DNA from: Gammaproteobacteria bacterium
GTDB lineage: Bacteria; Pseudomonadota; Gammaproteobacteria; Eutrophobiales; Eutrophobiaceae
DNA: 64,000 nt
Assembly: GCA_965221695.1 (NCBI GenBank)
Contig: OZ244905.1
Span: 2,701,384-2,765,383 of the forward strand
Direction of reading: 5' to 3'
In this document: in pieces, positions 24,040-60,917 of the stretch
Position numbering within the stretch: position 1 is the stretch's first letter
Layout of the letters: each line of letters starts with the position of its first letter
Notes under the pieces: generated by a model
Database searches by the model: none
What the model was told of the DNA's origin: nothing
What the model saw: only the letters and a program-made list of their open reading frames with translations
Program-made: the position numbers and the translations under genes

Positions 24040-24161
24040 TAGCACAGGCCAAGGTATTGCCCCGTACCACTCCCGCAACAGCGGGAGTCCAGTCAAATAA
24101 GTGTCGCCCGCAGGGCGACTCATCTGTTTACTGGATTCCCGTTTTCACGGGAATGGTACGG
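24040..24161 (-). repeat. REP-A copy (inverted) with part of the extension
   Basis: ccaaggtattgccccgtaccactcccgcaacagcgggagtccagt...gtcgcccgcagggcgac...attcccgttttcacgggaatggtacgg. Confidence 0.85.
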
Positions 24162-29866: not shown

Positions 29867-29902
29867 GAAAGCTTTGAACAAGTCCATCGTTGATCTGTCA
29901 GG
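29866..29902 (+). repeat. MITE-B fragment (degenerate first hairpin)
   Basis: aagaaagctttgaacaagtccatcgttgatctgtcagg lies directly after the rlmE stop. Confidence 0.55.
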
Positions 29903-29984
29903 TGATGCAAACAATGTAAGTGATAGGATGTATGCTGGCAGGCGCTCGTCCGTTTGTTGAGATAAAGCTCAGGCATAAGGCGTT

Positions 29985-36260: not shown

Positions 36261-36347
36261 GGAGAGGTGCCAGAGTGGTTGAATGGGGCAGACTCGAAAT
36301 CTGTTGTACGCGTCAGCGTACCGTGGGTTCGAATCCCACCCTCTCCG
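36261..36347 (+). tRNA. tRNA-Ser (anticodon CGA)
   Basis: ggagaggtgccagagtggttgaatggg...gactCGAaatc..., a long variable arm (gtacgcgtcagcgtac), T arm gtgggttcgaatcccac, and an acceptor pairing GGAGAGG/CCTCTCC with discriminator G. No CCA is encoded. Confidence 0.9.
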
Positions 36348-36701
36348 TAACATTCATGCCACAGGCGCATCTGGCGCCTGTGGCATGAATGTTGATGCAA
36401 TGGGGTTCGAACCCACGGTAATTAAATACGGGTTCGACAAATTCGCTGGGAGCGAATTTGAACAGCGTAGCTGGCCCCGGAGGGGCAAACTACATGGATG
36501 TAGTTTGTAATCCCACCCTCTCCGTAACATTCATGGCACAGGCGCTTCTGTCGCCTGTGCCATGAATGTTGATGCAATGGGGTTCGAACCCACGGTAATT
36601 AAATACGGGTTCGACAAATTCGCTGGGAGCGAATTTGAACAGCGTAGCTGGCCCCGGAGGGGCAAACTACATGGATGTAGTTTGTAATCCCACCCTCTCC
36701 G
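36332..36701 (+). repeat. Two tandem 177-bp units, each bounded by the 16-nt tRNA-Ser 3' end (three copies: 36332, 36509, 36686)
   Basis: aatcccaccctctccg occurs three times with an exact 177-bp period. Each unit starts with a 20-bp-stem hairpin (36349-36393; 36526-36570). Confidence 0.9.
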
Positions 36702-37896: not shown

Positions 37897-38276
37897 GCTA
37901 GCAATACTAACACAAAATATTAAATATGCAAGGTAAATGTTTTTGTGGTGATCTGTTTCCAATGAAGGCAAAGCGGGATTAGAACCCGCGATACGGTACC
38001 GTGTTCACAACAAAAACCGGCGCTTGGCGAGGAAGGTGTACAGGCGGGTGGTGAACAAGTCGCCGGTACGGCGAACTTTGCGAGGCACAAACCTCTTATC
38101 ACCCAATGTAATTCGGTTTGTATAGTCCGCAACATCCGTAATTGGTTTTGAAAATCCTGTGTCTATGGACAACCCCCCCATACTTGATTAGCATAAGTCA
38201 TAAGGAGGACCTATCGTGAACGTTGATTTCGTGACAAAGCGCCAGTCTGACAATCTCATGCAAATGCCGACCATCC

Positions 38277-38684
38277 ATGTCCAGGATTCGTTGTTATAGT
38301 ATCGGTCGAGACCCCTCCGCATCCATCGTACTGCGTCATGAGACGGTGTCGCGCAGGCATGCAGAGTTGATTCCCGTATCCGGCGGGCAGGTATACGTCA
38401 CGGATTGCGCCAGCGCCTGCGGGACTTTCATCGATAAGGGCAGGCGCTGGGAGAGGCTTACCCAGGATTTCGTCGGCGCAGGCGGCAGGGTGCGTTTCGG
38501 CGAGGTTGAGGTCAGCGTGCAGAGTCTGCTGGCGGACATTGCCCGCTTGCCTGCCGGCGGTGGAACGGGTCCCGGCGGTTCGGCGGAGCCCGGCGGTACC
38601 CCAGGCGCCGATAAGAAGAAACATGTGGATGCCGGCCGCGGGGTCATGCGCGACCCGGAAACGGGCGAGCCGATTCCCATGTAA
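38277..38684 (+). CDS. Small FHA-domain protein with Gly/Pro-rich tail (operon gene 1)
   Basis: YSIGRDPSASIVLRHETVSRRHAEL...VTDCASACGTFI carries the FHA G-R...S-R-x-H...GT pattern. Confidence 0.75.
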   Translation: MSRIRCYSIGRDPSASIVLRHETVSRRHAELIPVSGGQVYVTDCASACGTFIDKGRRWERLTQDFVGAGGRVRFGEVEVSVQSLLADIARLPAGGGTGPGGSAEPGGTPGADKKKHVDAGRGVMRDPETGEPIPM

Positions 38685-38699
38685 TCGGACAGACAGACC

Positions 38700-39473
38700 A
38701 TGAACCAGAGAATGAGGATATTCATAGGGGCGCTGGGCGCGGGCGTGATCTTCATCGGCCTGCTCAGCCTGTTTTTCTCCGAAGGTTTCTTCGCCGACTT
38801 CCTGCTGGACCGGAATTCGAAGTTCATGCCCTACCCGGTCACGATACAGAATATCATGTGGCTGGTGTTCTTCATCGGGGCGGGAGAATTGCTGTCGCGC
38901 TACCTGCAGACGGACCGGGAAATCAGCCAGATCCGCCTGGGACTGTTGCCGGAGGACAGCACAACCCTATTGCGCAAGCAAGATCTGGGCGGCGTGTACC
39001 AGCGCGTCAAGGAAACCATGCACCCGGCGCCGGGCGCTGCGGAGGATTCCTATTTCCTGCAACGCCTGCTGTCCCGTTGTATCCTGCAGTTCCAGGTCAG
39101 CGGCGCCATTGATAAGGCAAACAACATGTTCAACTCCAGCCTGGAGTTGTTCCAGCACGAGGTCGAGCTGAGGTACAATGCCATTCGCTATATCGTCTGG
39201 CTGATCCCGACCCTGGGGTTCATCGGCACCGTGGTCGGCATCGCGCTGGCGCTCAGCAACGCCGGCAGCGTCGACAACTTCCAGGACCCCACCTTGCTGA
39301 AACAGCTTACCCAGAGTCTCGGCGTAGCGTTCTTTACCACCTTGCTGGCCTTGCTGCAATCCGCGGCGCTGATGTTCGCGCTGCATGTCGTACAAGGACA
39401 GGAGGAAGCGTCGCTGAACCGGATAGGGCAGTATTGCCTGGATAACCTGATTAACCGGTTGTACGAGACTTGA
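38700..39473 (+). CDS. MotA/TolQ/ExbB-family proton-channel-like membrane protein (operon gene 2)
   Basis: Predicted TM helices are present. The C-terminal block IPTLGFIGTVVGIALAL...LGVAFFTTLLALLQSAALMF matches the MotA_ExbB signature PxLGxxGTVxG...AxxTTxxGL. Confidence 0.7.
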   Translation: MNQRMRIFIGALGAGVIFIGLLSLFFSEGFFADFLLDRNSKFMPYPVTIQNIMWLVFFIGAGELLSRYLQTDREISQIRLGLLPEDSTTLLRKQDLGGVYQRVKETMHPAPGAAEDSYFLQRLLSRCILQFQVSGAIDKANNMFNSSLELFQHEVELRYNAIRYIVWLIPTLGFIGTVVGIALALSNAGSVDNFQDPTLLKQLTQSLGVAFFTTLLALLQSAALMFALHVVQGQEEASLNRIGQYCLDNLINRLYET

Positions 39474-39715
39474 TGGGGGTCGCCTGCGCGAGACAAATCG
39501 GCAGGACAGCCGATTTGCGCAGCGACTGCTGCCCGCAGGGTTGTATCCAGGGAAGGATGCAATGAGTGACGGAAGGAGAGAGGAATGACGGGTGGGTTCA
39601 AGAATGACGGTTAAGGGGCGAAGGGAGGTGTCGGCAAGTGGGTGTCGGCAAGTTGAACGCAGGGTGGTTTTCTGTTAAATTTTCATCAACCGCAACACCA
39701 GAAGGGGAGGACATC

Positions 39716-40375
39716 ATGCCGGTAAAACGCGATGCGGACGGGAACATCATAAAGGAACAGACAAGAACTACCGGAGTGGGTGATCCGGTGTTGCCGACCT
39801 TGGGGCGCTCCACTGTCGGCGCCACGGTCGGCCCCGGCAGGTCTCCCGAGACCAACCCCGGCCAGTCATCGGGTTATGAGGCCCAGACGGTGCTGGCAGG
39901 TTCGCCCCGTGTCGCGGAAGGGGAAGCCAGGACCCGGATCTACCGGCCCGGCAGGACGGGGCGGCAACAGCCGGAGACACCGGCTCCAGGTACGGGCGCT
40001 GAGGACGCGACGTCCTCTGCCATGGACGACCCGCCCGTAGGCTGGCTGGTCGTCGTCAGTGGGCCGGGACAGGGGAACTACATGGCCGTCGGCAACGGTT
40101 CGAATTCAGTCGGACGCGATGAGCGCGAGCGAGTGCGCGTGGATTTCGGTGACGAGTTGATCTCCCGCAGCGACCATTCAACGATCACCTACGATCCCAG
40201 GGGTAAGAAGTTTTACCTGCAGCACGGCGCCGGAAAAAACCTCACTTACCTGGAAGGCAAACCTGTCCTGGCGCCGACCGAACTGCCCGGGTTTTCCCGG
40301 ATCACGATTGGGAACACCGAATTGCTGTTCATCCCGCTCTGTTGCGATCAGTTTGACTGGGACGACTACACGTAA
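39716..40375 (+). CDS. FHA-domain protein with Thr/Pro/Gly-rich disordered N-terminus (operon gene 3)
   Basis: The ATG at 39716 is preceded by gaaggggagga. The C-terminus reads GWLVVVSGPGQGNYMAVGNGSNSVGRD...ISRSDHSTITYD...NLTYLEGKPV...ITIGNTELLF. Confidence 0.8.
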   Translation: MPVKRDADGNIIKEQTRTTGVGDPVLPTLGRSTVGATVGPGRSPETNPGQSSGYEAQTVLAGSPRVAEGEARTRIYRPGRTGRQQPETPAPGTGAEDATSSAMDDPPVGWLVVVSGPGQGNYMAVGNGSNSVGRDERERVRVDFGDELISRSDHSTITYDPRGKKFYLQHGAGKNLTYLEGKPVLAPTELPGFSRITIGNTELLFIPLCCDQFDWDDYT

Positions 40376-40384: not shown

Positions 40385-41368
40385 ATGAATGCCCTCAAGC
40401 AGTGGGTGTCGGGAGAGCAGATCCAGGGAGACCGAAATTACCAGGAAGACTATTTCTCGCTCAGCCTGCTTTCCCAGGGCCGGGAACCTCCGGATGAAGA
40501 CTGCCTGCTGCTCGTGCTGGCCGACGGCATGGGCGGACATGCCGGCGGCGCCGTTGCCAGCGAGACGGTAGTCAAGGCATTCCAGGAGGGCTTCAACCGC
40601 GATGCAACCGGGATCGCAGAGCGTTTCAGCGCCGGCATCGACACCGCCAACAACGCCGTCAGGGAAAAACAACAGGCCGATCCGGAACTGTCCGAGATGG
40701 GTTGCACCCTGGTGGCCGCGCTGGTGGTCGGGTCGACCCTTTACTGGACCAGCGTCGGCGATTCCATACTGTGGCTGTGCCGGCAGGGACATTTGCAGAG
40801 ATTGAATGCGGACCATTCCATGAAACCGCTGTTGCTGGACCTGGTCGAATTGGGCAGGATGACCGAAGAAGAGGCGCTGAGCGATTACCGGATCAACCAG
40901 CTACGCTCGGCCATTTTCGGCGAGGAGGTTCAGCTGATTGACATGAACGCGGACGGTTTCCAACTGGAGAGTGGTGATCTCGTTTTACTGGCCAGCGACG
41001 GCCTGGAAACCCTGTCCGGGCAAAGCATGACAGATGTCATCGAGGCCCGCGCGGACGATGCCGATGAGATAGTGAACGCCCTGCTTGACGCAGTTGCCAT
41101 GGCGGGGGTGCGCGGGCAGGACAATACTACGGCGCTGGCGTACCGGGTCGGCCAGGGGCATGATTCACTGCACGGCGTACTGGCGGGCATCAGCACAGAT
41201 GACAAGGATGCCGTATTCGAGCAGCAAGTGAAACCCTCCCGAACCTGCGAGTTGCGCCCGGCACAGGAACAGGAAGCGCCGGCAAAGCGGCCCGGCATCT
41301 TCGCCCGAGCCATACATGCCTTCTCCGGTAGACCGGCGCGTCAAGACACTCGTGACGGGAAGCAATGA
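40385..41368 (+). CDS. PP2C-family Ser/Thr protein phosphatase (operon gene 4)
   Basis: RNYQEDY, LADGMGGHAGG, LASDGL and GQDNTTA motifs. Confidence 0.85.
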   Translation: MNALKQWVSGEQIQGDRNYQEDYFSLSLLSQGREPPDEDCLLLVLADGMGGHAGGAVASETVVKAFQEGFNRDATGIAERFSAGIDTANNAVREKQQADPELSEMGCTLVAALVVGSTLYWTSVGDSILWLCRQGHLQRLNADHSMKPLLLDLVELGRMTEEEALSDYRINQLRSAIFGEEVQLIDMNADGFQLESGDLVLLASDGLETLSGQSMTDVIEARADDADEIVNALLDAVAMAGVRGQDNTTALAYRVGQGHDSLHGVLAGISTDDKDAVFEQQVKPSRTCELRPAQEQEAPAKRPGIFARAIHAFSGRPARQDTRDGKQ

Positions 41369-43104
41369 CAGCAATACGAGCATTGATGTTGTGTGCGCTT
41401 CTGGTGTACCTGCCGGCAGGCAACAGCCAGACGACCGGTGATGACGCAGAAGCGCCGGCTGTTTCCTCTGCCACTGCACCCGCTGTGCCTGCTGATACGC
41501 CCGTGACAACGGAGGACCCAGCGCAAATAGCCGCCCCCTCAGCGGATACAGCCACGGCGATTGCCGCGGTTGTGCAGGTTCCCGAACCCGTAGATTTCAG
41601 TGCGGTGCGGCCCCACCTGGTGGTCATAAGAGAAGGGATGGACGCCGCCGCACGTCGCACGCCGGGATTCAGCATCAGCGACCAGGGCCATATCCTGACT
41701 TATTCCGGAGAATTACGCGCCCGGGAGTACTACCTTGTCTCGGTTGCAGGCGGTCAGGTCTTTACTGCTGCGCTGCTTGATGAAGATGAAGACACCGGCC
41801 TCATGCTACTGAGGATCGCAGGAGAAGGGCACGGCCTCACCGCCCTGAAGTTTGCCAGAACGACGCTGGAAGCCGCGGTGCCGCTCTATGCAGTACGGTT
41901 CGACCCGGTGCGGGCGGAGCCGTTCGTGCCCGTTCCCGGCACGGTCACGCGGTTGCCTGCAACGGATGAGGAGACACCGGCAATCGTGCATAATGCCCTG
42001 TTCAATACGGCGGCCGCCGGGACGCCCTTGTTCAACCGTTGTTACCAGGCGGTCGGTGTCAGCGTGCTGCAAAGGAAGGGCTTCCCGCCGAGAACTCTCG
42101 ATCCCCAACAACAGGGTAGCGCCATCTCCCTGGCGGCCTACTCGTTGAGCGTGATCCTGGCGTCGGCCAACCTGACCCTGCCCATCGCTGAGGCGGAGTG
42201 CCAGAGTGCGGAGGAGGAGGCGCGACTGCGGCTGGAACAACTTCAGCAGGAAAAAGAGGCGGAGCGGGCAAATGCCGAAGCCCTGGCCCTTGCCGCCGCG
42301 GAGGAAGCGCTGCGCAGGGAGGCGGTAATGAACCTGGAGCGGGAAGCAGCGCAACAGCAGCTTGAACAGGCGCGCCAAGAGAAAGAAGCGGCCCTGCAGG
42401 CGGAGCGGGCAAGTGCCGAAGCCGATAAGCGCCGTTTGGAAGAAGAAGCGCAGCAACAACTTGAACAGGCGCAGCAGGAGAAGGAACAGGCCCTGCAGGC
42501 ACAACAGCAGGAGAATGAACAGGCTCTGCAGGTGGAGCGGCAGGAGACCGAACAGGCCCGGCGGGAAGCCCGGCAGGCGACGCATACGGGGAAACAGATC
42601 CTGCTGTTATCGCTAGCGGTCGTCTTCGTCCTGGCGCTGGTCTTCTTCCTGGTCCTGCGCGCCAGGCGTAAACACCTGCAACGCGTGGAACAGGAAAAAC
42701 AGCAGTTCGCCCAGGACCTGGACAGGGCAGAGGCAGACCTGTCAGACGCCTCCGAGAGGGAGCAGCTACGCGCCGGCGCCCCCGACGTGTTTATCGAGGG
42801 TGTCACGCCGCAGAACGAGCGCATCGCCCTGAAAATACCCGGCGCCTCACTGGTCAAACCCTCAGGTGTCACGGTAGGCAGGAGTCCCTCCGAATCCGAG
42901 TTCGTCATCAATCACGAACAGGTCTCCCGCCGCCATTTCCGCCTCATGCTGGTGTCTGGGCAGGTGATGATCGAAGATATGGGCTCGACCAATGGGACCG
43001 TCGTGAACGGCGTGCCCCTCAGTCCCGGCGCCCGGCAGACGCTGGGCGACGGCAGCCGCATGCAGGTCGGGCGCGTGACGATGACGGTGCGGATAGGTCT
43101 CTGA
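41365..43104 (+). CDS. Bitopic membrane protein: signal peptide, trypsin-like (apparently inactive) periplasmic domain, repetitive coiled coil, TM helix, cytoplasmic FHA domain (operon gene 5)
   Basis: Signal MTAIRALMLCALLVYLPAGNSQ. The HtrA-like layout (GFSISDQGHILTY...DTGLMLLRI...AAAGTPLF) lacks an obvious His or Ser. QQLEQAxQEKExALQA repeats follow, then TM ILLLSLAVVFVLALVFFLVL. The FHA region reads VTVGRSPSESEFVINHEQVSRRHFRL...STNGTVVNG. Confidence 0.65.
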   Translation: MTAIRALMLCALLVYLPAGNSQTTGDDAEAPAVSSATAPAVPADTPVTTEDPAQIAAPSADTATAIAAVVQVPEPVDFSAVRPHLVVIREGMDAAARRTPGFSISDQGHILTYSGELRAREYYLVSVAGGQVFTAALLDEDEDTGLMLLRIAGEGHGLTALKFARTTLEAAVPLYAVRFDPVRAEPFVPVPGTVTRLPATDEETPAIVHNALFNTAAAGTPLFNRCYQAVGVSVLQRKGFPPRTLDPQQQGSAISLAAYSLSVILASANLTLPIAEAECQSAEEEARLRLEQLQQEKEAERANAEALALAAAEEALRREAVMNLEREAAQQQLEQARQEKEAALQAERASAEADKRRLEEEAQQQLEQAQQEKEQALQAQQQENEQALQVERQETEQARREARQATHTGKQILLLSLAVVFVLALVFFLVLRARRKHLQRVEQEKQQFAQDLDRAEADLSDASEREQLRAGAPDVFIEGVTPQNERIALKIPGASLVKPSGVTVGRSPSESEFVINHEQVSRRHFRLMLVSGQVMIEDMGSTNGTVVNGVPLSPGARQTLGDGSRMQVGRVTMTVRIGL

Positions 43105-43818
43105 ATGAACCGTTCATTGTGGTGCGGTTTGATATTTCTCAGCCTCTGGGGTCTGAGTTACCAGGGTGGCGCGGATATTGATGACCAGGAAGAACATTTC
43201 AGGGAGGAGCAGGGGGCGCAACAGGATCAGGAAGCCGCGCGACGGGAACGCAAGCGTGCCCGACAGGCAGAACAGGAGGCGCTCCGGCAACAGGAAGCGG
43301 CGCGCCAGCGCGTGGTTCAGCAAAATCTGTTCGTAACCTTGCTGGCTCTGTTGACCCTGCTGGCCTTGATACTGGCCTTGAGAAAACCCCGGCAGGCCAT
43401 TGTTTGGGCCGCCGGCCACGCAATCGAACCACTCAGTCGGCGCTTCAAACCGGCAGGGCGCTTGCCCGCGCCGGGCGCAGCCCGCGCCGGGACGGCAAAC
43501 GTCGTACTTACGGGCTTTGACAGCCGGGGCAAACCGGTGAATATCCCGTTGCCGGAGGAGGAACTGGATCGGAAACGGGGCGGTTTCACCCTGGGGCGCC
43601 ATCACCTGCTGGTCGATACGGCGCTGGACGATGACCGGATATCGAAGCGCCATGCCCGGTTCACCCGCAACGGTCACGGCTATTTTATCGAAGACCTCAA
43701 TTCGAGAAACGGCACTGTGATCAACGGTGAGCAACCCTGCGCGCCGTTCAAACCCATGCGAATCAGGCCCGGCGACACGGTGCGGCTAGGCGGCATGGAG
43801 TTGCTCGTATCGGCCTGA
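43105..43818 (+). CDS. Membrane-anchored FHA-domain protein (operon gene 6)
   Basis: N-terminal hydrophobic segment, a charged E/Q/R-rich stretch, TM LFVTLLALLTLLALILAL, and a C-terminal FHA (FTLGRHHLLVDTALDDDRISKRHARF...SRNGTVING). The ATG abuts the gene 5 stop. Confidence 0.75.
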   Translation: MNRSLWCGLIFLSLWGLSYQGGADIDDQEEHFREEQGAQQDQEAARRERKRARQAEQEALRQQEAARQRVVQQNLFVTLLALLTLLALILALRKPRQAIVWAAGHAIEPLSRRFKPAGRLPAPGAARAGTANVVLTGFDSRGKPVNIPLPEEELDRKRGGFTLGRHHLLVDTALDDDRISKRHARFTRNGHGYFIEDLNSRNGTVINGEQPCAPFKPMRIRPGDTVRLGGMELLVSA

Positions 43819-43831: not shown

Positions 43832-44635
43832 GTGAGGCTACGCAGCAAGGAGATCAATGTCTTCAACATGTCCGCGCTGGACCTGTTCGCCTCCGCGCTG
43901 GGTGCGTTTATCCTTATTTCCGTGGTCTTGTTTCCCTATTTTCCCAACACCGGCGATTCCCAGGAACGGGTGGACGAGGTCAAGGCGCAACTGGCTGAGG
44001 CCAATGCGCGATTGGAGGAAACCAGCGCCGAACTGGAGCAGGTCCGCGCCCGGTTGAACCCCGCCCTGGAACAAGAACTGCAGGTCGCACGAGAACAACT
44101 CGGCGCGTGCCAGGCCCGACTCCGGGAGGCAGAGGCCGCGCTAAACGCCTGCCAGGTTGAACAGCGAGAAGTTGCATCATTGGATTCCGCGCTGGGCGCC
44201 TGCGAGAACCGCAACCGGCAGATGCAACAGGAACTGCAATCCTGCGAGAATGAATTGCGCAAGAAATTCGTGCTGGTCGTGATCAGCTGGGGCACGCCGG
44301 ACGATATCGACCTGCACGTGATCGATCCGCAAGGCCGGGAGTTCTTCTACGGGCGCAAACACATCCCCGGTTCCCTGGCAAAACTGGAAGAGGACAACAC
44401 CAGAGGTCCCGGCAATGAGATCTGGCTGCACCCGGCCGCGGAGCCGGGCGCCTACGAGGTTTACTACAAATATTACGATGGATCAACCGGCAACGTGCAG
44501 GTGCGCGGCGCGGCGCTGACGCCCCGCGGCAGGACGGAGTTGCCGGACATCACTCTGCGGTACGTGGGTGAGAAGCCCCTGGTGGCAACCATTTTCGTCA
44601 ATGAGGATGGCAACGCTGAGGTGAGGGCATGGTAA
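43832..44635 (+). CDS. Bitopic protein with MotB/ExbD/TolR-like Asp-containing TM helix, Cys-bearing coiled coil and C-terminal DUF2135 (YfaP)-like domain (operon gene 7)
   Basis: N-terminus MRLRSKEINVFNMSALDLFASALGAFILISVVLF (compare TolR SEINIVPLLDVLLVLLLIF and MotB ADFMTAMMAFFLV). The coiled coil has four xAC(Q/E)/SCE motifs. The C-terminus reads VISWGTPDDIDLHVIDPQGREFFYG...EEDNTRGPGNEIW...PGAYEVYYKYY. Confidence 0.6.
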   Translation: MRLRSKEINVFNMSALDLFASALGAFILISVVLFPYFPNTGDSQERVDEVKAQLAEANARLEETSAELEQVRARLNPALEQELQVAREQLGACQARLREAEAALNACQVEQREVASLDSALGACENRNRQMQQELQSCENELRKKFVLVVISWGTPDDIDLHVIDPQGREFFYGRKHIPGSLAKLEEDNTRGPGNEIWLHPAAEPGAYEVYYKYYDGSTGNVQVRGAALTPRGRTELPDITLRYVGEKPLVATIFVNEDGNAEVRAW

Positions 44636-44660: not shown

Positions 44661-44690
44661 TTGACACGATTTCCCAGGCCCCCTTAGAAT
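44661..44690 (+). promoter_or_regulatory. Sigma-70-like promoter candidate upstream of the kinase gene
   Basis: TTGACA (44661-44666), an 18-nt spacer, then TAGAAT (44685-44690). A perfect 9-bp inverted repeat, ccggtgaca-N11-tgtcaccgg, follows at 44700-44728. Confidence 0.4.
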
Positions 44691-44766: not shown

Positions 44767-47373
44767 ATGAACTCCGACCACCTGCATGCCCTACCGCCCG
44801 GCACGCGCCTTGAAGAATTTCGGCTGGAGGCGCAGGTGGGCGCCGGCGGGTTCAGCATCACCTATCGGGCCTATGACGAATTACTGGACAAGGTGGTGGC
44901 CGTCAAGGAATACCTGCCGCGGGATTTCGCCACCCGCACCGCCGGCAATACAGTGGCGCCCATATCCGATGCGGACGCCCGGGATTACCAGTGGGGCCTG
45001 ACCCGGTTCCTGGACGAGGCCCGCACGCTGGCCAGGTTCGACCATCCGCATCTCAACAAGGTGCGTCGTTTCTTCGAGGCCAACGGCACGGCCTACATGG
45101 CGCTGGAGCATATCCATGGCGAGACCCTGGCTACCCGGTTAAGCCGCGAGCGGCGCTTGCCGGAAACGGACCTGCTGCGCCTGCTGGAGGAAGTGTTATC
45201 GGGACTTGCTGTGATTCACGAGGCTGGCTACGTGCACCGGGACATCAAACCGGGCAACCTGATGCTGCGCGAGGAAGACGACAGCATAGTGCTGCTGGAC
45301 TTCGGCGCCGCGCGCCAGGCAGTGGGCCAGAGTTCCAAGTCAATCACCAGCATCCTGACACCGGGCTATGCCCCGATAGAGCAGTACGAAAGCAAAGCGG
45401 ACGCCGTCGGACCGTGGAGTGATATCTATGCATTGGGGATGGTGGCGTACAAGTGCATCAGCGGCGCGGGTGACGGGGAGTTGCCCGATGCCGTGACCCG
45501 GGCCCGCTCCCAACGCAAAGGGGGTAAGGACCTGGCGATGGCGGCGGAGGTGGGCCAGAGCAGGTACAGTGCGAAGCTGCTGGCGGCGATAGACTGGGCC
45601 ATCGAGGTGGATGAGGAGTCCCGGCCGCAGGGGGTGGGTGAGTGGAGTGAGGCGCTGGTGGGGAGCGGGAGCAAGCAACGAGCCGCCAAACCGGCGCCTA
45701 ATACAACGGCACGGTCTGCAAAGGCTCCGGCCACCGAGCGCCAGGGTATGAATTGGTACAGCATGGCCCTGACCGCGGTGATAGTGGTGTTACTGGGAGC
45801 GAGCGCCTGGCAGGGCTGGCGGCTGTATCAGGGGATGCCCGGGCTTGGCGTAGACGGCGCCGCCACGGCAGTTGAGTCGCAGGCAAACGCACAGGGCAAA
45901 GCAGAGTTAGCAGCAGAACCCTATGCACAAACACCAACGGTAACGCCAGAACAAGGCTCCGGGCCTGACGCGCCCACACTGGCCGCGCCGGTTGAGGAAG
46001 ACGAAGTCGCCCGGCTGCTGGCTGCAGCCGAAGCCGACTTGGAGGCAAGACGCCTGACCAGTCCGCAGGGGAACAACGCCTGGGAGAAGTACCGGCGGGT
46101 ATTGGGTTTATCCTCCGCGCACCCCGAGGCCATAGCGGGGATGGAGCGGGTGATCGGGAGTTACATGGACCTGTTCGGCGCTGTTCTGGAGCAGGAGGAT
46201 TTTGACCAGGCGGAGGGGTATCTCTCACGCATCCGCGACCTGCACCCGGATTCGCCACTCTTGTTGACGGGGAAAGAACGTTTGGAACAAGCCCGGCAGG
46301 CTCATGTCGAGCGGTTGGCGGAAGAAGAGCGCCTGCGCCAGGCCGAGGAAGCGGCGCGCCAGGCGGAACAGGAGCGCCAGCGAATAGCACAGGAAATCGA
46401 GAGACACTGGCAGTCCTTTGAGACGGCAATGCAGCAAGACAAATTGGACCGGGCGGAAGACAGTCTCAACCTCGTGCGGGAGTTGGACTCGGACGCGCCG
46501 GGGTTAGCGGATGCGGAACGACGCCTGTCACAGGCGCGGGAAGCATCCCGGCAGAAGGCGCTGCAGTATGCCGGTGAGATGGTCTCCATCCCTGCCGGCA
46601 GTTTCCGCATGGGGGACCTGACAGGCGCTGACGCTGAGAAACCGGTCCACAGTGTGCGAGTCGCGGCCTTCAGCATGGGCAAGTATGAGGTAACGGTGGG
46701 CCAGTTCCAGCGGTTTGTGGAGGCGACGGGGTACCTCACGGATGCGGAGCGTTATACGGACGGCAAAGCAGGTTGTTCTGTCTATACAACAAAAAGATGG
46801 AAGTACACCGAGGGCAAGAGTTGGCGCAATCCGGGGTTTTCAGTCGGAGACAAGCACCCGGTGGTGTGCGTGAACTGGAATGATGTGCAGGCGTTCGTGA
46901 AGTGGCTGAACGGCAATACCGATGGGGATTTCCGCTTGCCGACCGAGGCGGAGTGGGAGTATGCGGTGCGCGCCGGGAGCAGTACGAAGTATCATTTCGG
47001 CAATGATGAGTCACAACTGTGCCGGTTTGCCAGCCATGCGGACAGCGGGACGGATATTGATTGGAAAAACAAGTCCTGCTCGGACGGTGTGGGCGAACGC
47101 ACCGCCGAAGTGGGCCGTTACCAGCCGAACAGTTTCGGGCTGTATGACATGCACGGCAATGTCTGGGAGTGGGTGACAGATTGCTGGAATGAGAGTTATG
47201 TGGGCGCCCCGACAGACGGTAGCGCCTGGACGAATGGGGACTGCAGCCGGCGCGTCATTCGGGGCGGGGCCTGGGACAGCTCACCGTGGAACCTGCGTTC
47301 CGCGCACCGTTACGGGAGCTCCCGTTCGAATCACAGCTCTTATCTGGGCTTTCGCTTGGCCCGGGACAACTGA
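44767..47373 (+). CDS. Transmembrane Ser/Thr protein kinase fused to a C-terminal FGE-sulfatase (SUMF1/formylglycine-generating enzyme family) domain (operon gene 8)
   Basis: Kinase motifs GAGGFSITY, VAVKEY, HRDIKPGNLML, DFGAAR and TPGYAPIEQY. TM WYSMALTAVIVVLLGASAW. A helical/coiled periplasmic linker follows. The FGE domain reads MVSIPAGSFRMGD...FRLPTEAEWEYAVRAG...GLYDMHGNVWEWV...RVIRGGAWDS...LRSAHR. Confidence 0.85.
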   Translation: MNSDHLHALPPGTRLEEFRLEAQVGAGGFSITYRAYDELLDKVVAVKEYLPRDFATRTAGNTVAPISDADARDYQWGLTRFLDEARTLARFDHPHLNKVRRFFEANGTAYMALEHIHGETLATRLSRERRLPETDLLRLLEEVLSGLAVIHEAGYVHRDIKPGNLMLREEDDSIVLLDFGAARQAVGQSSKSITSILTPGYAPIEQYESKADAVGPWSDIYALGMVAYKCISGAGDGELPDAVTRARSQRKGGKDLAMAAEVGQSRYSAKLLAAIDWAIEVDEESRPQGVGEWSEALVGSGSKQRAAKPAPNTTARSAKAPATERQGMNWYSMALTAVIVVLLGASAWQGWRLYQGMPGLGVDGAATAVESQANAQGKAELAAEPYAQTPTVTPEQGSGPDAPTLAAPVEEDEVARLLAAAEADLEARRLTSPQGNNAWEKYRRVLGLSSAHPEAIAGMERVIGSYMDLFGAVLEQEDFDQAEGYLSRIRDLHPDSPLLLTGKERLEQARQAHVERLAEEERLRQAEEAARQAEQERQRIAQEIERHWQSFETAMQQDKLDRAEDSLNLVRELDSDAPGLADAERRLSQAREASRQKALQYAGEMVSIPAGSFRMGDLTGADAEKPVHSVRVAAFSMGKYEVTVGQFQRFVEATGYLTDAERYTDGKAGCSVYTTKRWKYTEGKSWRNPGFSVGDKHPVVCVNWNDVQAFVKWLNGNTDGDFRLPTEAEWEYAVRAGSSTKYHFGNDESQLCRFASHADSGTDIDWKNKSCSDGVGERTAEVGRYQPNSFGLYDMHGNVWEWVTDCWNESYVGAPTDGSAWTNGDCSRRVIRGGAWDSSPWNLRSAHRYGSSRSNHSSYLGFRLARDN

Positions 47374-47463
47374 AACGAAGGCATTATAAAGACTCTATAC
47401 ACAGGACTATCCGGCTGGATTCCCTTTTCCCCTTCTATCTCATCGGCAATCGCCTGGCGAACT

Positions 47464-49089
47464 TCACCGCATCGATTTTTGCAGTACCGAGAAGTTTCTT
47501 ACCCAAGGCTCTAGTTTGCGTATTTCATCGGGCAAATCATCTATAGCTCTTTCGGCAAGCTCATAGTCATGGTACAGACCATAAAACACGCGATAGTAAG
47601 TTATCTGCTCGATCTCGATCCTGATATAGGCAATCTGCTGTGTCAGGTTATTCTGTTTGAGGAAATTTAGCACACGTTCTTCACTGGAAAAGCTGGCCAG
47701 TTGCAAAGTGTAGTGATACGGAGATTGTGCGGCGACCCAGTCTTCCCGCCTGATAGCGGTCTCACCGGCGTCAGAGGCATCCTCGCCAGCCAACTCATCT
47801 TCATCGGAAATGACCTCGCTGGTGGTCGCAACCAGATCGGAAATGGCCTCTGGTACAGCCGCAATGTATTCCGCTGTCGCTGGTACAGGGCTGGTGTCCG
47901 CGGTCTCTGCAACAGTCTCCGGCGTTTCCTCCTCCGCGGCGTTCAGCGCGATCTCGGCGGTGTCCTCATCCGTCTGAGCAGCTACGATGGTCGGCGTTTC
48001 TTCGACAGCAGGCGCTGTGTCTTCTGCTTCAGTTGCCTCAGCAGCAGTTTGAGCAAGGCTGGTCTCCGCGGTCTCTGCAACGATCTCCGGCGCTTCCTTC
48101 TCCGCATCGAACAGTGCGGTCTCGGCTGTGTCTTCGTCCGACTGAGCGGCTATGGTCGGCGCTTCCTCCTGCGTGACGCTCAGTGCGGTCTCGGCAGCGT
48201 CCTCATCCGGCTGAGCAGCTATAATCGGTGTTTCCTCGACGGCAGGTACCGTATCTTCTTCAGTTGCCTGCGCAAAGGGTTCTGTTGTTTCCTGCATTGC
48301 AGGCGCTTGCGATACGGTCGTGTCCTCTTCAATATCGACATAAGCAAGTCTTTGTAAGCTTTCTTCTGCCTGTTGCAGACCCCCGGCGGCCGCGCGTTGA
48401 TACCATTTTTTCGCCTCCACCAGGTCCTTTTCTACCGCGTAACCATTTTCATAGTACACGCCCATGTTGAATTGCGCCTGTGGGACATCGGCGTCAGCGG
48501 CTTTTCTGAACCAGAGTAGCGCTACATCATAGTCCTGGTCGACGCTGTAACCGAAGGCGTACATGACAGCCAGGCTGTATTGCGCATTTCCGTTTCCCTG
48601 CTCTGCTGCTTGGCGGAAAAGCCGGGTGGCTGTTTCATAATCCCGGGTAATCTGCTCACTGCCGTTGAAGTACAAAAGGCCAAGGTTGAACAGCGCATCC
48701 GATTGCCCGGCCGCCGCGGCCAGCTTCCACCATTGCATGACTTTAGACGGGTCTTTTGTGACACCATCACCGTGCAAGTACTTGACGCCGAGCTCGAATT
48801 GGGCGTCGGGGTGCCCTTGATCCGCCGCAAGCAAGTACCATTTTACTGCTTCGGCAGAATCTGCGTTAACGCCATGGCCATAGTCATACATGAGGCCAAG
48901 CATTCTTTGCGCATCCGAGTTGCCGTCCTCAGCCAGTGGTTGCAGTATTTCGTAGGCTTTTTCGTAGTCTTTGGCCAGGTAGGCCTGTCTCGCCGTTTCA
49001 AAAGATTGCGCCAGCACAGGGCCGGAAAATACCAACCCCAATAACAGGAAAGGAATTAACTTGGTCAGCATAAACCGTATCTTTGACAT
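47464..49089 (-). CDS. Exported Sel1-repeat protein with acidic repetitive linker and C-terminal SPOR domain
   Basis: Signal-like N-terminus, about five Sel1 repeats (DAQxxLGxxYxxGxGVxxDxxxAxxWY), an E/T/A/D-rich repeat region, and the C-terminal YTLQLASFSSEERVLNFL...YYRVFYGLY. Confidence 0.75.
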   Translation of the reverse strand: MSKIRFMLTKLIPFLLLGLVFSGPVLAQSFETARQAYLAKDYEKAYEILQPLAEDGNSDAQRMLGLMYDYGHGVNADSAEAVKWYLLAADQGHPDAQFELGVKYLHGDGVTKDPSKVMQWWKLAAAAGQSDALFNLGLLYFNGSEQITRDYETATRLFRQAAEQGNGNAQYSLAVMYAFGYSVDQDYDVALLWFRKAADADVPQAQFNMGVYYENGYAVEKDLVEAKKWYQRAAAGGLQQAEESLQRLAYVDIEEDTTVSQAPAMQETTEPFAQATEEDTVPAVEETPIIAAQPDEDAAETALSVTQEEAPTIAAQSDEDTAETALFDAEKEAPEIVAETAETSLAQTAAEATEAEDTAPAVEETPTIVAAQTDEDTAEIALNAAEEETPETVAETADTSPVPATAEYIAAVPEAISDLVATTSEVISDEDELAGEDASDAGETAIRREDWVAAQSPYHYTLQLASFSSEERVLNFLKQNNLTQQIAYIRIEIEQITYYRVFYGLYHDYELAERAIDDLPDEIRKLEPWVRNFSVLQKSMR

Positions 49090-60747: not shown

Positions 60748-60900
60748 GGAAACTCTGAACAAGTCCATCCTGGACTTGTCAGAGTACGGAAAACAAAAAT
60801 GCGATTTTTGTTTTCCTCACAATATCAATGCCTTACAGACATTGATATTGACGATACATCCTTGTATCGTAGGAACCTCTGACTTAATCAGAGGTTCCTT
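60745..60900 (+). repeat. MITE-B element, full copy
   Basis: The copy starts at the MFS stop codon. All five hairpins are intact. Confidence 0.9.
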
Positions 60901-60917
60901 AGTTTTGGAGACAACTT

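What the first reader, a model, noticed from the sequence alone, without database searches (positions are those of the whole stretch)
44767..47373. Transmembrane Hanks-type kinase with a periplasmic FGE-sulfatase (SUMF1-like) domain as putative sensor
All catalytic kinase motifs are present (VAVK, HRDIKPGN, DFG, APIE). A single TM helix follows at about aa 330-350. After it comes ~230 aa of helical, E/R/A-rich linker, then a complete FGE-sulfatase fold (RLPTEAEWEYA, HGNVWEW, RGGAW).

No sulfatase gene is nearby, so a sulfatase-maturation role is unlikely. The domain is more plausibly a ligand-binding or redox-sensing ectodomain. Fusions of this kind are annotated generically in databases, but as far as I know their function is uncharacterised. 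Here the fusion sits at the end of an operon that supplies four potential FHA readers.
Basis: partly seen in the sequence, partly recalled or inferred. Interest (0 to 1): 0.6.

Follow-up and report, generated by a model that had tools for sequence, protein, structure and literature searches.

The report
Receptor kinase with frozen hypervariable lectin-fold sensor
This membrane kinase carries an outward-facing domain that looks like a sulfatase-maturing enzyme but has lost its catalytic residues; it is instead the kind of binding domain that close relatives rewrite with a mutagenic retroelement, although this genome shows no such element nearby and its copy is unchanged in sister genomes.

Summary
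ORF 44767-47373 encodes an 868-aa protein with an intact Hanks kinase, one TM helix (aa 330-348), a helical periplasmic linker and a complete FGE-sulfatase fold. It ends an operon with four FHA proteins and a PP2C phosphatase. No sulfatase gene was found in the window.

Both FGE catalytic cysteines are missing, here and in 114 of 114 homologues.

The last ~41 codons (47242-47364) are a diversity-generating-retroelement (DGR) variable region. In the 78%-identical orthologue the gene is followed by bAvd, a reverse transcriptase and a template repeat. Twenty of 21 mismatches between that repeat and the gene fall at template adenines. Two further loci show the same signature. Across the family, variability sits at exactly those codons (2.85 vs 0.55 bits).

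In this window there is no RT, Avd or template repeat. Homology with the DGR-bearing loci ends ~70 nt past the stop codon. Two sister genomes have identical variable regions. The receptor therefore looks fixed here.

Kinase-lectin DGR targets are already catalogued. The conserved eight-gene cassette around this one (MotA/ExbB-like, MotB-like, pseudo-protease) appears undescribed.

The parts
38166..38194 (+). Promoter-like site upstream of the operon (9 of 12 match)
   Evidence: This is a consensus match only, and the number of sites found is not above the shuffled expectation.
38277..38684 (+). Small cytoplasmic FHA protein (135 aa), first gene of the cassette
   Evidence: Pfam FHA E 3.2e-13. 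It has no TM helix. Orthologues sit in the same position in L085, L086, L087, L088, L090 and L091.
38700..39473 (+). MotA/ExbB/TolQ-like protein with three TM helices (257 aa)
   Evidence: Pfam MotA_ExbB scores 41.7 bits against a cutoff of 22.9. TM helices are predicted at aa 7-25, 161-179 and 209-227. There are weak ZorA hits only. It has no sequence relative in the PDB.
39638..40375 (+). Cytoplasmic protein with a disordered N-terminus and a C-terminal FHA domain. The start codon is uncertain; the public gene call corresponds to 39716.
   Evidence: Pfam FHA E 4.4e-6 at aa 157-225. The gene call in L001 is at 1151-1810.
40385..41368 (+). PP2C-type Ser/Thr phosphatase
   Evidence: Pfam PP2C_2 and PP2C score above their cutoffs. 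NCBIfam Stp1/IreP scores 140 bits, below its cutoff of 230. The metal-binding motifs ADGMGGH and SDGL are visible in the sequence.
41365..43104 (+). Bitopic protein: signal peptide, periplasmic trypsin-like pseudo-protease, coiled coil, TM helix (aa 412-430), cytoplasmic FHA domain
   Evidence: Pfam Trypsin_2 and FHA. TM prediction. The catalytic His, Asp and Ser are all replaced when aligned with active paralogues in L090 and L091 (TNHHV->TYSGE, KDLAV->TGLML, GNSGGP->AAAGTP).
43105..43818 (+). Bitopic protein: N-terminal hydrophobic segment, short charged periplasmic coil, TM helix (aa 74-92), cytoplasmic FHA domain
   Evidence: Pfam FHA E 3.2e-17. TM prediction.
43832..44635 (+). 'CC' protein: N-terminal TM helix with an invariant Asp17 (MotB/ExbD/TolR-like), periplasmic coiled coil, conserved C-terminal beta-sandwich
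   Evidence: The family has 897 homologues, unnamed and almost all without a meaningful Pfam domain. The segment MSALDLFASALGAFILI and D17 are invariant. There is a weak ZorB/MotB hit at aa 6-70, E 3.8e-4. In the model, the beta domain has pLDDT of about 90. Its only fold match is a weak TerD-like one, E 2e-4.
44661..44690 (+). Promoter-like site (TTGACA-18-TAGAAT, 11 of 12 match) in the 131-bp gap before the kinase gene
   Evidence: Consensus match only.
44767..47373 (+). Receptor Ser/Thr kinase with a periplasmic FGE/CLec-fold domain (868 aa)
44821..45468 (+). Hanks-type kinase catalytic domain (aa 19-234 by Pfam; conserved up to about aa 300)
   Evidence: The catalytic residues are invariant. 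Mean column entropy is 0.44 bits over aa 19-290, the lowest of any region of the protein.
45754..45810 (+). Single TM helix (aa 330-348)
   Evidence: Hydropathy scan. Basic residues lie on the N-terminal side, which implies an N-in, C-out topology (inferred).
45991..46572 (+). Periplasmic all-helical linker (aa ~409-602), preceded by about 56 disordered residues
   Evidence: AlphaFold model, helices at model residues 57-250. Some homologues carry TPR Pfam hits in this region.
46573..47364 (+). FGE-sulfatase / C-type-lectin-fold domain (aa 603-866), PvdO-like, lacking the catalytic Cys pair
   Evidence: Pfam E 1.1e-67. By sequence, PvdO 5hha matches at E 6.7e-47 and true FGEs at about 1e-30. 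By Foldseek, PvdO has TM 0.81, FGEs 0.72-0.82 and TvpA 0.69.
47242..47364 (+). DGR variable-region equivalent (aa 826-866, CSRRVIRGGAWDSSPWNLRSAHRYGSSRSNHSSYLGFRLAR). No template repeat is present in the window.
   Evidence: Compared with the L083 template repeat, 17 of 31 template-adenine sites differ against 15 of 92 other sites (p 8e-5). The rate at non-adenine sites equals the gene-wide divergence of 18.6%. Family entropy is 2.85 vs 0.55 bits. Sister genomes are identical here.
47374..47440 (+). Conserved element after the stop codon, shared with DGR-bearing orthologous loci. Homology ends at about 47440, where the other loci continue into a terminator hairpin (in the DGR-bearing loci followed by bAvd).
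   Evidence: Alignment A4.

Best explanation
What it is. The gene encodes a bitopic receptor Ser/Thr kinase. The catalytically competent Hanks domain is cytoplasmic. After one TM helix come a disordered stretch, a helical stalk and an FGE-fold domain in the periplasm. That domain is not an enzyme. [quoted passage not shown] Its hypervariable residues occupy the loop where true FGEs hold their copper-binding cysteine pair.

Relation to DGRs. The protein belongs to a clade of receptor kinases whose C-terminal ~41 codons are rewritten by an adjacent bAvd-RT-template cassette in sister lineages. In this genome the cassette is absent from the orthologous site, and the variable region is identical in two sister genomes. 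The receptor is therefore most likely a fixed specificity.

Inferred mechanism. A ligand binds the variable-region surface and promotes kinase activation and autophosphorylation on Thr. Candidate sites are the activation loop (T194, T198) and the Thr-containing juxtamembrane segment. The phospho-Thr sites recruit the four co-operonic FHA proteins. Two of these span the membrane. One carries a periplasmic pseudo-protease domain. The PP2C phosphatase resets the system. The MotA/ExbB-like protein and the MotB-like 'CC' protein are the most plausible output device.

Shown versus inferred. Shown: domain content, loss of the FGE catalytic residues, the DGR origin of the variable region, absence of the DGR in the window, and conservation of the cassette. 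Inferred: topology, ligand gating, FHA docking, and the nature of the output.
For: - Kinase motifs are intact and invariant.
- FGE fold: Pfam E 1e-67. The model has pLDDT 82. Foldseek matches PvdO, FGE and TvpA.
- Both catalytic Cys are absent, and 0 of 114 homologues has CxxxxC there.
- DGR in the 78% orthologue L083: bAvd and RVT_1 lie directly downstream. The RT carries IGNLTSQ and YVDD motifs. Between VR 12536-12658 and TR 14216-14338, 20 of 21 mismatches fall at TR adenines, p 3e-14.
- The same holds in L089, where two kinase genes match one TR (16 of 17 and 20 of 20), and in L088 (11 of 13). L087 has bAvd after the operon-terminal kinase.
- Four RT relatives share exact contig lengths with kinase homologues.
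- In the family alignment, VR codons with a TR adenine at position 1 or 2 average 2.85 bits against 0.55 bits for the rest, p 1.2e-7.
- The window VR differs from the L083 TR at 55% of adenine sites and 16% of other sites. Background divergence is 18.6%.
- The window has no RT or Avd by tblastn, and no TR copy.
- Sister-genome proteins differ at 14 and 10 residues, none in aa 826-866.
- A synteny break lies about 70 nt after the stop codon.
- The cassette is conserved with the kinase in L083-L088, L090, L091 and L005.
Against: - Nothing here is biochemical. No ligand is known.
- FHA-kinase coupling rests on operon linkage and on analogy with other Hanks kinase/PP2C/FHA modules.
- Only 64 kb of a roughly 3.54-Mb genome could be read, so a remote DGR acting in trans is not excluded.
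- With only 10-14 substitutions per sister protein, fewer than one would be expected in the VR by chance. Identical VRs therefore argue against recent DGR activity but do not prove fixation.
- The adenine-site classification uses the L083 template as a proxy, because no cognate template is available.
- The strongest sequence relative, PvdO, is annotated as an oxidoreductase, so some catalytic or cofactor-binding role cannot be formally excluded.
- A strong promoter-like site before the kinase gene suggests it may also be transcribed on its own.
Confidence: 0.7

Rival explanations
1. The variable region is still being diversified, in trans, by a DGR (RT, Avd and template repeat) located elsewhere in the ~3.5-Mb genome. 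The receptor would then be a live hypervariable sensor.
For: Remote DGR targets are documented (PMC10907252; PMC7517822). In L089 one template serves two kinase genes. Only 64 kb of the genome could be examined.
Against: Three distinct sister sequences on five contigs have identical VRs. None of the best 120 relatives of the clade's RT lies on a contig of this genome's length. The window VR differs from the nearest known TR at non-adenine sites at the background rate, as decayed paralogues do in L088. A search for a cognate TR in metagenome and viral collections found nothing.
Confidence: 0.15
2. The FGE-like ectodomain does not bind an external ligand. It docks onto a partner protein of the same system (the periplasmic pseudo-protease, the CC protein's beta-sandwich, or another envelope protein). 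This would parallel the separate periplasmic FGE-family protein TagR, which promotes PpkA kinase activation in the Pseudomonas H1-T6SS pathway.
For: TagR is assigned to COG1262 and acts upstream of PpkA. Three cassette proteins have periplasmic parts. The pseudo-protease has lost catalysis, which suits a binding role.
Against: A surface that must keep recognising a fixed, co-encoded partner should not be hypervariable. In this clade it is the most variable part of the protein and is DGR-mutagenised.
Confidence: 0.12
3. The domain is a PvdO-like or other FGE-superfamily enzyme or cofactor binder (oxidative chemistry on a small molecule), with the kinase reporting substrate turnover or redox state.
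For: PvdO is the best PDB hit, E 6.7e-47, and the best NCBIfam hit, 194.8 bits. PvdO also lacks the FGE cysteines.
Against: The score is far below the PvdO equivalog cutoff of 500. The ORFs scanned with Pfam include no obvious pyoverdine-type genes such as non-ribosomal peptide synthetases. The putative active-site loop is hypervariable across homologues, which is incompatible with a conserved catalytic site.
Confidence: 0.05
4. It is a true formylglycine-generating enzyme fused to a kinase, maturing a sulfatase encoded outside the window.
For: There is a full-length Pfam FGE-sulfatase match. One distant homologous locus (L091) has a sulfatase gene about 9 kb away.
Against: Both catalytic cysteines are absent here and in all 114 homologues. 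No sulfatase was found in the 64-kb window.
Confidence: 0.02

Closest known systems
DGR variable proteins with an N-terminal Ser/Thr kinase and a C-terminal CLec/FGE-sulfatase domain (Wu et al. 2018 category b12, PMC5758913; cyanobacterial STK-CLec variable proteins and their non-diversified paralogues, Vallota-Eastman et al. 2020, PMC7517822)
   Same: The domain order is the same: a Hanks kinase at the N-terminus and an FGE-type CLec domain at the C-terminus, with the variable region in the last ~40 codons. Orthologues show adenine-specific VR/TR mismatches. Both DGR-linked and DGR-less paralogues exist.
   Different: Most cyanobacterial examples are predicted to be cytosolic. This clade has a TM helix and a periplasmic CLec domain. 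It sits in a dedicated cassette of FHA, PP2C, MotA-like, MotB-like and pseudo-protease genes that those papers do not describe. The window copy has no DGR nearby and an invariant VR.
TvpA, Treponema denticola variable protein (PDB 2Y3C)
   Same: It has the FGE-subtype C-type-lectin fold with a C-terminal DGR variable region and no FGE activity (PMC5758913). It matches by sequence at E 7e-13 and by fold at TM 0.69, E 6e-14.
   Different: In the literature seen here, TvpA is described only as a variable protein thought to mediate surface interactions, and no kinase, TM-helix signalling module or FHA operon is mentioned. Identity to the modelled domain is only about 25%.
PvdO (Pseudomonas aeruginosa, PDB 5HHA)
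   Same: It is the closest solved sequence relative (E 6.7e-47) and is co-linear through the C-terminal loop without gaps. It also lacks the FGE Cys pair (visible in the alignment). That PvdO is periplasmic is from my own knowledge.
   Different: PvdO is a stand-alone protein of pyoverdine maturation. The window domain scores 194.8 bits against the PvdO equivalog cutoff of 500, has no obvious pyoverdine gene context, and is fused to a kinase.
Formylglycine-generating enzyme (human SUMF1; Thermomonospora curvata and Streptomyces coelicolor FGE)
   Same: Same fold (TM 0.72-0.82) and same Pfam family. Conserved scaffold motifs such as RLPTEAEWEYA and HGNVWEW are shared.
   Different: The Cu(I)-binding cysteine pair in LCHxSYC is replaced by a 3-residue deletion plus hypervariable residues. 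No sulfatase partner was found.
Threonine phosphorylation pathway of the P. aeruginosa H1-T6SS (TagR, PpkA, PppA, Fha1)
   Same: It combines a transmembrane Hanks kinase, a PP2C phosphatase and an FHA reader, and a periplasmic FGE-family (COG1262) protein acts upstream of the kinase.
   Different: There the FGE-like protein is a separate polypeptide. From my own knowledge, PpkA's periplasmic domain is vWA-like. The output is a T6SS, and the window has no T6SS genes. That system has no DGR link.
MotAB / ExbBD / TolQR / ZorAB ion-driven stator complexes
   Same: The MotA_ExbB-family 3-TM protein is accompanied by a single-pass protein whose TM helix carries an invariant Asp. There are weak ZorA and ZorB profile hits.
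   Different: The two genes are not adjacent. There is no OmpA/PG-binding or TonB-type partner domain and no ZorC/ZorD. All scores are far below family cutoffs. The pairing is an inference.

Membership tests
Hanks-type (eukaryotic-like) Ser/Thr protein kinase | Gly-rich loop, VAxK lysine, alpha-C glutamate, HRD catalytic loop with Asn, DFG, and APE motifs | tested here: met
   GAGGFS, K47, E84, H157-R-D159...N164, D178-F-G and A202-P-I-E205 are all present. All are invariant in 20 homologues. Pfam Pkinase scores 110 bits against a cutoff of 31.7.
Hanks-type (eukaryotic-like) Ser/Thr protein kinase | Phosphotransfer activity | not testable with these tools
   This needs an in vitro autophosphorylation assay.
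Formylglycine-generating enzyme (functional FGE) | FGE-sulfatase fold | tested here: met
   The Pfam match covers the full profile length, E 1.1e-67. Foldseek TM is 0.72-0.82 to solved FGEs.
Formylglycine-generating enzyme (functional FGE) | Catalytic, copper-binding cysteine pair (human C336/C341; LCHxSYC motif) | tested here: not met
   GGSFLCHESYCNRYR aligns to GGAW---DSSPWNLR. None of 114 homologues has CxxxxC in this loop.
Formylglycine-generating enzyme (functional FGE) | Cognate sulfatase substrate encoded nearby | tested here: not met
   No Pfam Sulfatase match among the larger window ORFs scanned. No signature motif lies in a real ORF. The rest of the genome was not available.
PvdO (dihydropyoverdine maturation protein) | Score above the NCBIfam equivalog cutoff | tested here: not met
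   NF051459 scores 194.8 bits against a cutoff of 500.
PvdO (dihydropyoverdine maturation protein) | Pyoverdine biosynthesis gene context | tested here: not met
   The neighbours identified by Pfam are FHA, PP2C, MotA-like, Sel1/SPOR, enolase-superfamily and TonB-receptor genes, with no non-ribosomal peptide synthetase or other obvious pyoverdine-type gene. No specific pvd-gene search was run.
DGR variable protein (CLec/FGE-sulfatase type) | C-terminal C-type-lectin/FGE-fold domain with the variable region in the last ~40 codons | tested here: met
   The fold is shown. The window segment 47242-47364 is co-linear with the verified VRs of L083 and L089.
DGR variable protein (CLec/FGE-sulfatase type) | Variation concentrated at codons that carry adenines in the template repeat | tested here: met
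   At family level the values are 2.85 vs 0.55 bits, p 1.2e-7. For the window against the L083 TR, 55% of adenine sites differ against 16% of other sites, p 8e-5.
DGR variable protein (CLec/FGE-sulfatase type) | Cognate template repeat whose mismatches to the VR fall only at adenines | tested here: not met
   The window contains no second copy of the VR. None was found in the metagenome or viral collections. The feature is met in the orthologous loci L083, L088 and L089. The rest of this genome was not searchable.
DGR variable protein (CLec/FGE-sulfatase type) | DGR reverse transcriptase and accessory Avd in cis | tested here: not met
   tblastn with the L083 RT and Avd against the window gives only noise, E > 0.6. 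Synteny with the DGR-bearing loci ends at about 47440.
DGR variable protein (CLec/FGE-sulfatase type) | Evidence of ongoing diversification between strains or within populations | tested here: not met
   P0121 and P0122 differ from the window protein at 14 and 10 residues, none within aa 826-866. Read-level heterogeneity is not testable here.
T6SS threonine phosphorylation pathway (PpkA/PppA/Fha1/TagR) | Kinase + PP2C + FHA embedded in a T6SS gene cluster | tested here: not met
   The kinase, PP2C and FHA genes are present, but no T6SS core domain was seen among the window ORFs scanned. The TagH model TIGR03354 scores 38 bits against a cutoff of 120.
Zorya (ZorAB) anti-phage system | ZorA and ZorB above the family thresholds, plus ZorC/D or ZorE | tested here: not met
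   ZorA scores 18-23 bits against an NCBIfam cutoff of 500. The ZorB hit has E 3.8e-4 over the TM region only. No ZorC/D/E hits were found.

The most novel reading that the evidence does not exclude
The eight-gene cassette is an undescribed envelope-surveillance system. Its parts are a small FHA protein, a MotA/ExbB-like protein, an FHA protein, PP2C, a pseudo-protease-TM-FHA protein, a TM-FHA protein, a MotB-like coiled-coil/beta-sandwich protein, and the CLec receptor kinase.

In this reading, periplasmic lectin-fold receptors are diversified by a DGR in some lineages, multiplied as tandem paralogues in others, and fixed in this genome. They detect foreign or self-derived envelope ligands and signal through phospho-Thr/FHA docking to an ion-driven MotA/MotB-like motor or channel. 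That would be a bacterial analogue of a receptor-kinase immune sensor with a somatically variable binding site.

Context that hints at a conflict role: these loci lie among toxin-antitoxin, Abi, transposase and mobile-element genes in relatives. In the window the cassette sits next to a PADLOC candidate defence ATPase.
Probability: 0.25. Interest if true: 0.8.

Novelty: new variant of a known kind. Interest (0 to 1): 0.5.

Why it matters
DGR-diversified signalling proteins are known only from sequence surveys. Nobody has established what their variable lectin domains bind or what the kinase does downstream.

This clade offers an unusually complete and testable wiring diagram:
- a periplasmic hypervariable receptor;
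- an intact kinase and a dedicated phosphatase;
- four phospho-Thr readers;
- a candidate membrane output device.

All of these sit in one conserved cassette. Natural 'live' versions (DGR-linked), multiplied versions and 'frozen' versions are available for comparison.

The result also gives a practical annotation rule. A kinase-FGE-sulfatase fusion that lacks the Cys pair should be read as a CLec receptor kinase and checked for a variable region. It should not be annotated as a sulfatase-modifying enzyme or as 'Pkn1/PknD'.

Tried and rejected
- **Sulfatase maturation role.** Rejected: no Cys pair and no sulfatase.
- **PvdO membership.** Rejected on the score cutoff and on gene context.
- **Anti-phage kinase families.** PD-T4-6 and MAD6 in PADLOC hit the kinase domain strongly (E 5e-45). 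The hit is to the generic kinase domain only, and the NCBIfam MAD6 score (127 bits) is far below its cutoff of 460. I did not treat this as membership.
- **DGR parts in the window.** Self-repeat search and tblastn/blastn with the L083 RT, Avd and TR found nothing except the VR itself.
- **RT elsewhere in the genome.** I matched contig lengths in an RT homologue search. None of the best 120 RT relatives is on a 3,539,060-, 3,512,735- or 678,879-bp contig. The list is truncated, so this is weak negative evidence.
- **Cognate template search.** I searched the metagenome and viral collections for the VR's 3' constant segment. The 73 hits are all unrelated FGE-like C-termini (at most 57 of 123 identity) with no RT.
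- **Genome-collection scan.** The scan showed breadth (Gammaproteobacteria, cyanobacteria, Bacteroidota, a Latescibacteria MAG) but did not find the source genome or close relatives.
- **Organism identification.** Exact-sequence lookups returned no names. Gammaproteobacteria is only a guess, based on the labels of the nearest named RT and kinase relatives.
- **CC and MotA-like proteins.** PDB sequence searches found only coiled-coil noise or nothing. The fold search of the CC model gave only a weak TerD-like match.
- **TagR paper.** The original paper (PMC3402362) is not held in the library.
- **Viral contigs.** They carry only stand-alone FGE-like domains, never the kinase fusion, and only 2 of 78 have an RT nearby. 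The DGR link is therefore specific to this clade and not generic to FGE-like domains.

Full report
**1.

The ORF at 44767-47373 (+) is the longest in its neighbourhood and translates to 868 aa. Pfam places a protein kinase domain at aa 19-234 (E 1.7e-31). It places a full-length FGE-sulfatase domain at aa 603-866, covering profile positions 3-255 of 255 (E 1.1e-67).

K47, E84, H157/R158/D159, N164, D178/F179/G180, P203/E205 and D219 are invariant in an alignment of 20 homologues with 52-79% identity.

A single hydrophobic helix lies at aa 330-348, with basic residues on its N-terminal side. An AlphaFold model of aa 353-868 was built on 62 sequences and has mean pLDDT 82. It gives about 56 disordered residues, about 190 residues of helix including one 60-residue helix, and then the FGE fold.

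The gene closes a same-strand operon with gaps of 15, 164, 9, -4, 0, 13 and 131 bp. Four of the upstream proteins contain FHA domains and one is a PP2C phosphatase. None of the ~46 larger ORFs of the window that I scanned is a sulfatase. No sulfatase signature motif lies in a real ORF.

**2. The FGE-like domain is not an FGE**

Against solved structures, the best sequence match is PvdO (5hha, E 6.7e-47). True FGEs score about 1e-30. In the alignments to the Thermomonospora curvata and Streptomyces coelicolor enzymes, the motif holding the two copper-binding cysteines (GGSFLCHESYCNRYR) aligns to GGAW---DSSPWNLR. The first Cys falls in a 3-residue deletion and the second aligns to Pro.

None of 114 full-length homologues has a CxxxxC pair in that loop, and only one has any Cys there. 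Fold comparison agrees with the family assignment. PvdO has TM 0.81, FGEs 0.72-0.82, and the DGR variable protein TvpA 0.69 (E 6e-14).

The domain is not PvdO either. The NCBIfam equivalog scores 194.8 bits against a cutoff of 500, and there is no obvious pyoverdine gene context.

**3. The unexpected finding: a DGR variable region**

I looked at the genomic context of the closest homologue, P0002 (78% identity, loci L083 and L084). Two genes lie directly downstream of the kinase gene: a bAvd-family protein and a reverse transcriptase. The RT carries the IGNLTSQ and YVDD motifs, which from my own knowledge are typical of DGR RTs (sequence).

A 123-137-nt repeat links the last codons of the kinase gene (12536-12658) with a copy just 3' of the RT gene (14216-14338). 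Of 21 mismatches, 20 are at adenines of the second copy (Fisher p 3e-14). That is the diagnostic signature of mutagenic retrohoming from a template repeat (TR) into a variable region (VR).

Other loci show the same signature:
- In L089, two kinase genes both match one TR, with 16 of 17 and 20 of 20 mismatches at adenines.
- In L088, the target next to the DGR gives 11 of 13. Two further paralogues there look decayed (10 of 22 and 15 of 36).
- In L087, the operon-terminal kinase is followed by bAvd at the contig end.
- Four relatives of this RT sit on contigs whose exact lengths match contigs carrying kinase homologues.

Across 114 homologues, VR codons whose TR counterpart has an adenine in position 1 or 2 average 2.85 bits of entropy. 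The other VR codons average 0.55 bits (Mann-Whitney p 1.2e-7). The kinase domain averages 0.44 bits. The residue spectra at the hot positions (N, S, Y, D, G, A, H, F, T...) are what AAC mutagenesis produces.

The first hypervariable patch (aa 837-842) is exactly the loop that holds the catalytic cysteines in true FGEs.

**4. What the window's own copy looks like**

Window segment 47242-47364 (aa 826-866) is co-linear with these VRs. Compared with the L083 TR, it differs at 17 of 31 adenine sites (55%) and at 15 of 92 other sites (16%) (p 8e-5). The 16% equals the 18.6% divergence of the two genes in the rest of the FGE domain. The window's VR is therefore a diverged member of the same VR lineage, with extra scrambling at adenine-templated positions.

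The window contains none of the other DGR parts. There is no second copy of the VR. tblastn with the RT and Avd gives only noise, and the TR matches only the VR itself.

An alignment of the DNA after the stop codon shows about 70 conserved nucleotides shared with L083, L087, L089 and L085. In those loci the homology continues into a GC-rich terminator hairpin, and in the DGR-bearing ones into the bAvd start. In the window it stops at about 47440, just before the end of a convergent Sel1/SPOR gene.

Two sister-genome variants of the protein differ at 14 and 10 residues, none within the VR. A search of the metagenome and viral collections for a cognate TR found only unrelated FGE-like C-termini.

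The most economical reading is that this lineage carries a fixed receptor derived from a DGR-diversified family. Since only 64 kb of a ~3.54-Mb genome could be read, I keep a 15% rival for a remote DGR acting in trans.

**5. The cassette**

The same gene set accompanies the kinase in L083-L088. It also does so in distant 5.4-5.6-Mb genomes (L090, L091), in a gammaproteobacterial MAG (L005), and, with a kinase that shows no FGE match, in a Latescibacteria MAG (L003).

Its members in the window are:

| Coordinates | Product | Key evidence |
|---|---|---|
| 38277-38684 | Small cytoplasmic FHA protein | |
| 38700-39473 | MotA/ExbB-family protein with 3 TM helices | Pfam above cutoff, |
| 39638-40375 | Cytoplasmic FHA protein | |
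| 40385-41368 | PP2C phosphatase | |
| 41365-43104 | Signal peptide, periplasmic trypsin-like domain, coiled coil, TM helix, cytoplasmic FHA | |
| 43105-43818 | TM-anchored protein with cytoplasmic FHA | |
| 43832-44635 | 'CC' protein | |

The trypsin-like domain has lost His, Asp and Ser of the catalytic triad. Paralogues in L090 and L091 keep all three.

The CC protein belongs to a family of 897 unnamed homologues. It has an invariant N-terminal TM helix (MSALDLFASALGAFILI) that carries an invariant Asp17. It also has a variable-length coiled coil and a highly conserved beta-sandwich. The only fold match for that sandwich is a weak TerD-like one.

An Asp in a single TM helix next to a MotA/ExbB-like protein is the arrangement of the MotB/ExbD/TolR stator subunits. 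PADLOC gives a weak ZorB hit over exactly that segment. I regard the pairing as a reasonable inference, not a demonstrated fact.

No paper in the searchable library describes this cassette.

**6. Mechanism proposed**

Shown by sequence:
- an intact kinase;
- an FGE-fold domain without catalytic residues whose former active-site loop is hypervariable;
- DGR mutagenesis of that loop in sister loci;
- four FHA proteins and a PP2C in a conserved operon, three of them with membrane or periplasmic parts.

Inferred from established knowledge of Hanks kinases, FHA domains and DGR variable proteins (Mtd and TvpA bind ligands through the VR surface):
- ligand binding at the VR surface in the periplasm;
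- kinase activation and Thr autophosphorylation (activation-loop T194 and T198 are invariant; the juxtamembrane segment PNTTARSAKAPATER offers further candidates);
- docking of the FHA proteins;
- reset by PP2C.

Speculative: the output acts through the MotA-like/MotB-like pair. The pseudo-protease serves as a periplasmic co-receptor or scaffold.

An 11-of-12 promoter-like site at 44661-44690 suggests the kinase gene may also be expressed independently.

**7. Comparison with what is known**

- The 2025 atlas of bacterial Ser/Thr kinases lists FGE-sulfatase as one architecture of its 'Proteo1' family.
- Wu et al. 2018 list a kinase + FGE-sulfatase DGR target as category b12. They note that TvpA has the FGE motif but no FGE activity.
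- Vallota-Eastman et al. 2020 found Ser/Thr kinase + CLec to be the most common multidomain DGR target in cyanobacteria. Most are predicted cytosolic, non-diversified paralogues exist, and the authors proposed ligand-gated or substrate-selecting roles.
- A 2024 survey found 'Pkn1' and 'PknD'-annotated proteins with the VR in a CLec domain among the recurrent DGR targets.
- Kaur et al. 2020 and Dore et al. 2024 interpret DGR-diversified FGE-type domains as invader sensors in conflict systems.
- FGE-sulfatase sensors on STAND NTPases and metacaspases fit the same theme.
- The nearest functional analogue for an FGE-family protein acting on a Hanks kinase is TagR (COG1262) upstream of PpkA in the Pseudomonas H1-T6SS pathway. 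There the two are separate proteins and the output is a T6SS.

The present case is therefore a known kind of protein in a new setting. The lectin domain is periplasmic. The gene sits in a dedicated envelope-spanning cassette. This particular genome lacks the retroelement.

The DGR link is specific to this clade. Only 4 of 58 genomic and 2 of 78 viral FGE-like loci retrieved have an RT nearby, and none of the viral ones has the kinase.

**8. Verdict**

Its 'non-enzymatic sensor' interpretation is right in outline. The redox idea is unsupported. The key biology, a DGR-lineage variable lectin domain, was missed.

Novelty is moderate. The fusion and its DGR association are catalogued but have not been studied experimentally. 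The cassette and the DGR-less 'frozen' state are new details. Interest 0.5.

Noticed in passing
window 36706-37971 (-): An AAA_14/DUF4143 ATPase lies immediately upstream of the cassette and divergent from it. It matches the PADLOC candidate defence family PDC-S01 at E 3e-95. This is a hint that the cassette sits in a defence-type neighbourhood.
   Followed up: partly
window 36323-36676: Two tandem copies of a 177-nt unit at 95% identity lie just past the 3' end of the AAA_14/DUF4143 gene. Their nature is unknown.
   Followed up: no
window 41365-43104: The periplasmic trypsin-like domain of the FHA protein has lost all three catalytic residues. Paralogues in distant versions of the cassette (L090 8576-9973, L091 8631-9986) keep HHV / D / GNSGGP.
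   Followed up: yes
window 43832-44635: The 'CC' protein defines a family of about 900 unnamed proteins. It has an invariant Asp-bearing TM helix and a conserved beta-sandwich with the motifs ISWGT.DDIDLHV.DP.GREF and AKLEEDN.GPGNEIWLHP. The only fold match is a weak TerD-like one.
   Followed up: partly
window 47464-49089 (-): A convergent gene encodes five Sel1 repeats plus a C-terminal SPOR (peptidoglycan-binding) domain. Its internal 108-nt DNA repeats at 47886-48230 lie in the part of the gene that encodes the Sel1-repeat region and probably correspond to those repeats. The gene replaces the DGR cassette seen at this position in L083.
   Followed up: partly
window 2949-3117, 3813-4001, 60738-60906, 29862-29927: A dispersed repeat family of about 170 nt (up to 93% identity between 2949-3117 and 60738-60906) occurs in intergenic positions and looks MITE- or REP-like.
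   Followed up: no
window 351-407, 560-651, 11820-11876, 17827-17985, 24043-24099: A second dispersed intergenic repeat contains a CTCCCGCGAAAGCGGGAG-type hairpin.
   Followed up: no
window ~14000-18000: A low-GC island (about 47.5%, against about 57% elsewhere) holds a NYN-domain gene, a UDG-superfamily gene and internal ~100-nt repeats (13210-13406 vs 15322-15648). It may be horizontally acquired.
   Followed up: no
L083 413-1024: A stand-alone FGE-like gene upstream of the cassette has a C-terminal segment (897-1010) that also matches the DGR template, with 21 of 29 mismatches at adenines. It is probably a second, older target of the same DGR.
   Followed up: partly
L002 6749-21878; also L088 and L089: Kinase-FGE genes occur as tandem arrays of up to four paralogues within 15 kb, without an RT in L002. 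Receptor multiplication may be an alternative to DGR diversification.
   Followed up: partly
L083 14502-22667, L086 15920-22712, L089 9592-12888: The regions downstream of the kinase or DGR in relatives are rich in toxin-antitoxin, AbiEii, nucleotidyltransferase, transposase and MobC/AlpA-type genes. This indicates variable genomic islands.
   Followed up: no
L003 (Latescibacteria MAG OY282352.1): The same MotA-like / FHA / PP2C / trypsin-FHA / FHA / CC gene set (39-61% identity) accompanies a 54%-identical kinase whose long gene shows no FGE match. The cassette is therefore older than the FGE-type ectodomain, or independent of it.
   Followed up: no
L091 1141-2601: A true sulfatase gene lies about 9 kb from the cassette in one distant genome, on the opposite strand and separated by unrelated genes. 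No such gene is seen in the window, and the linkage is probably coincidental.
   Followed up: no
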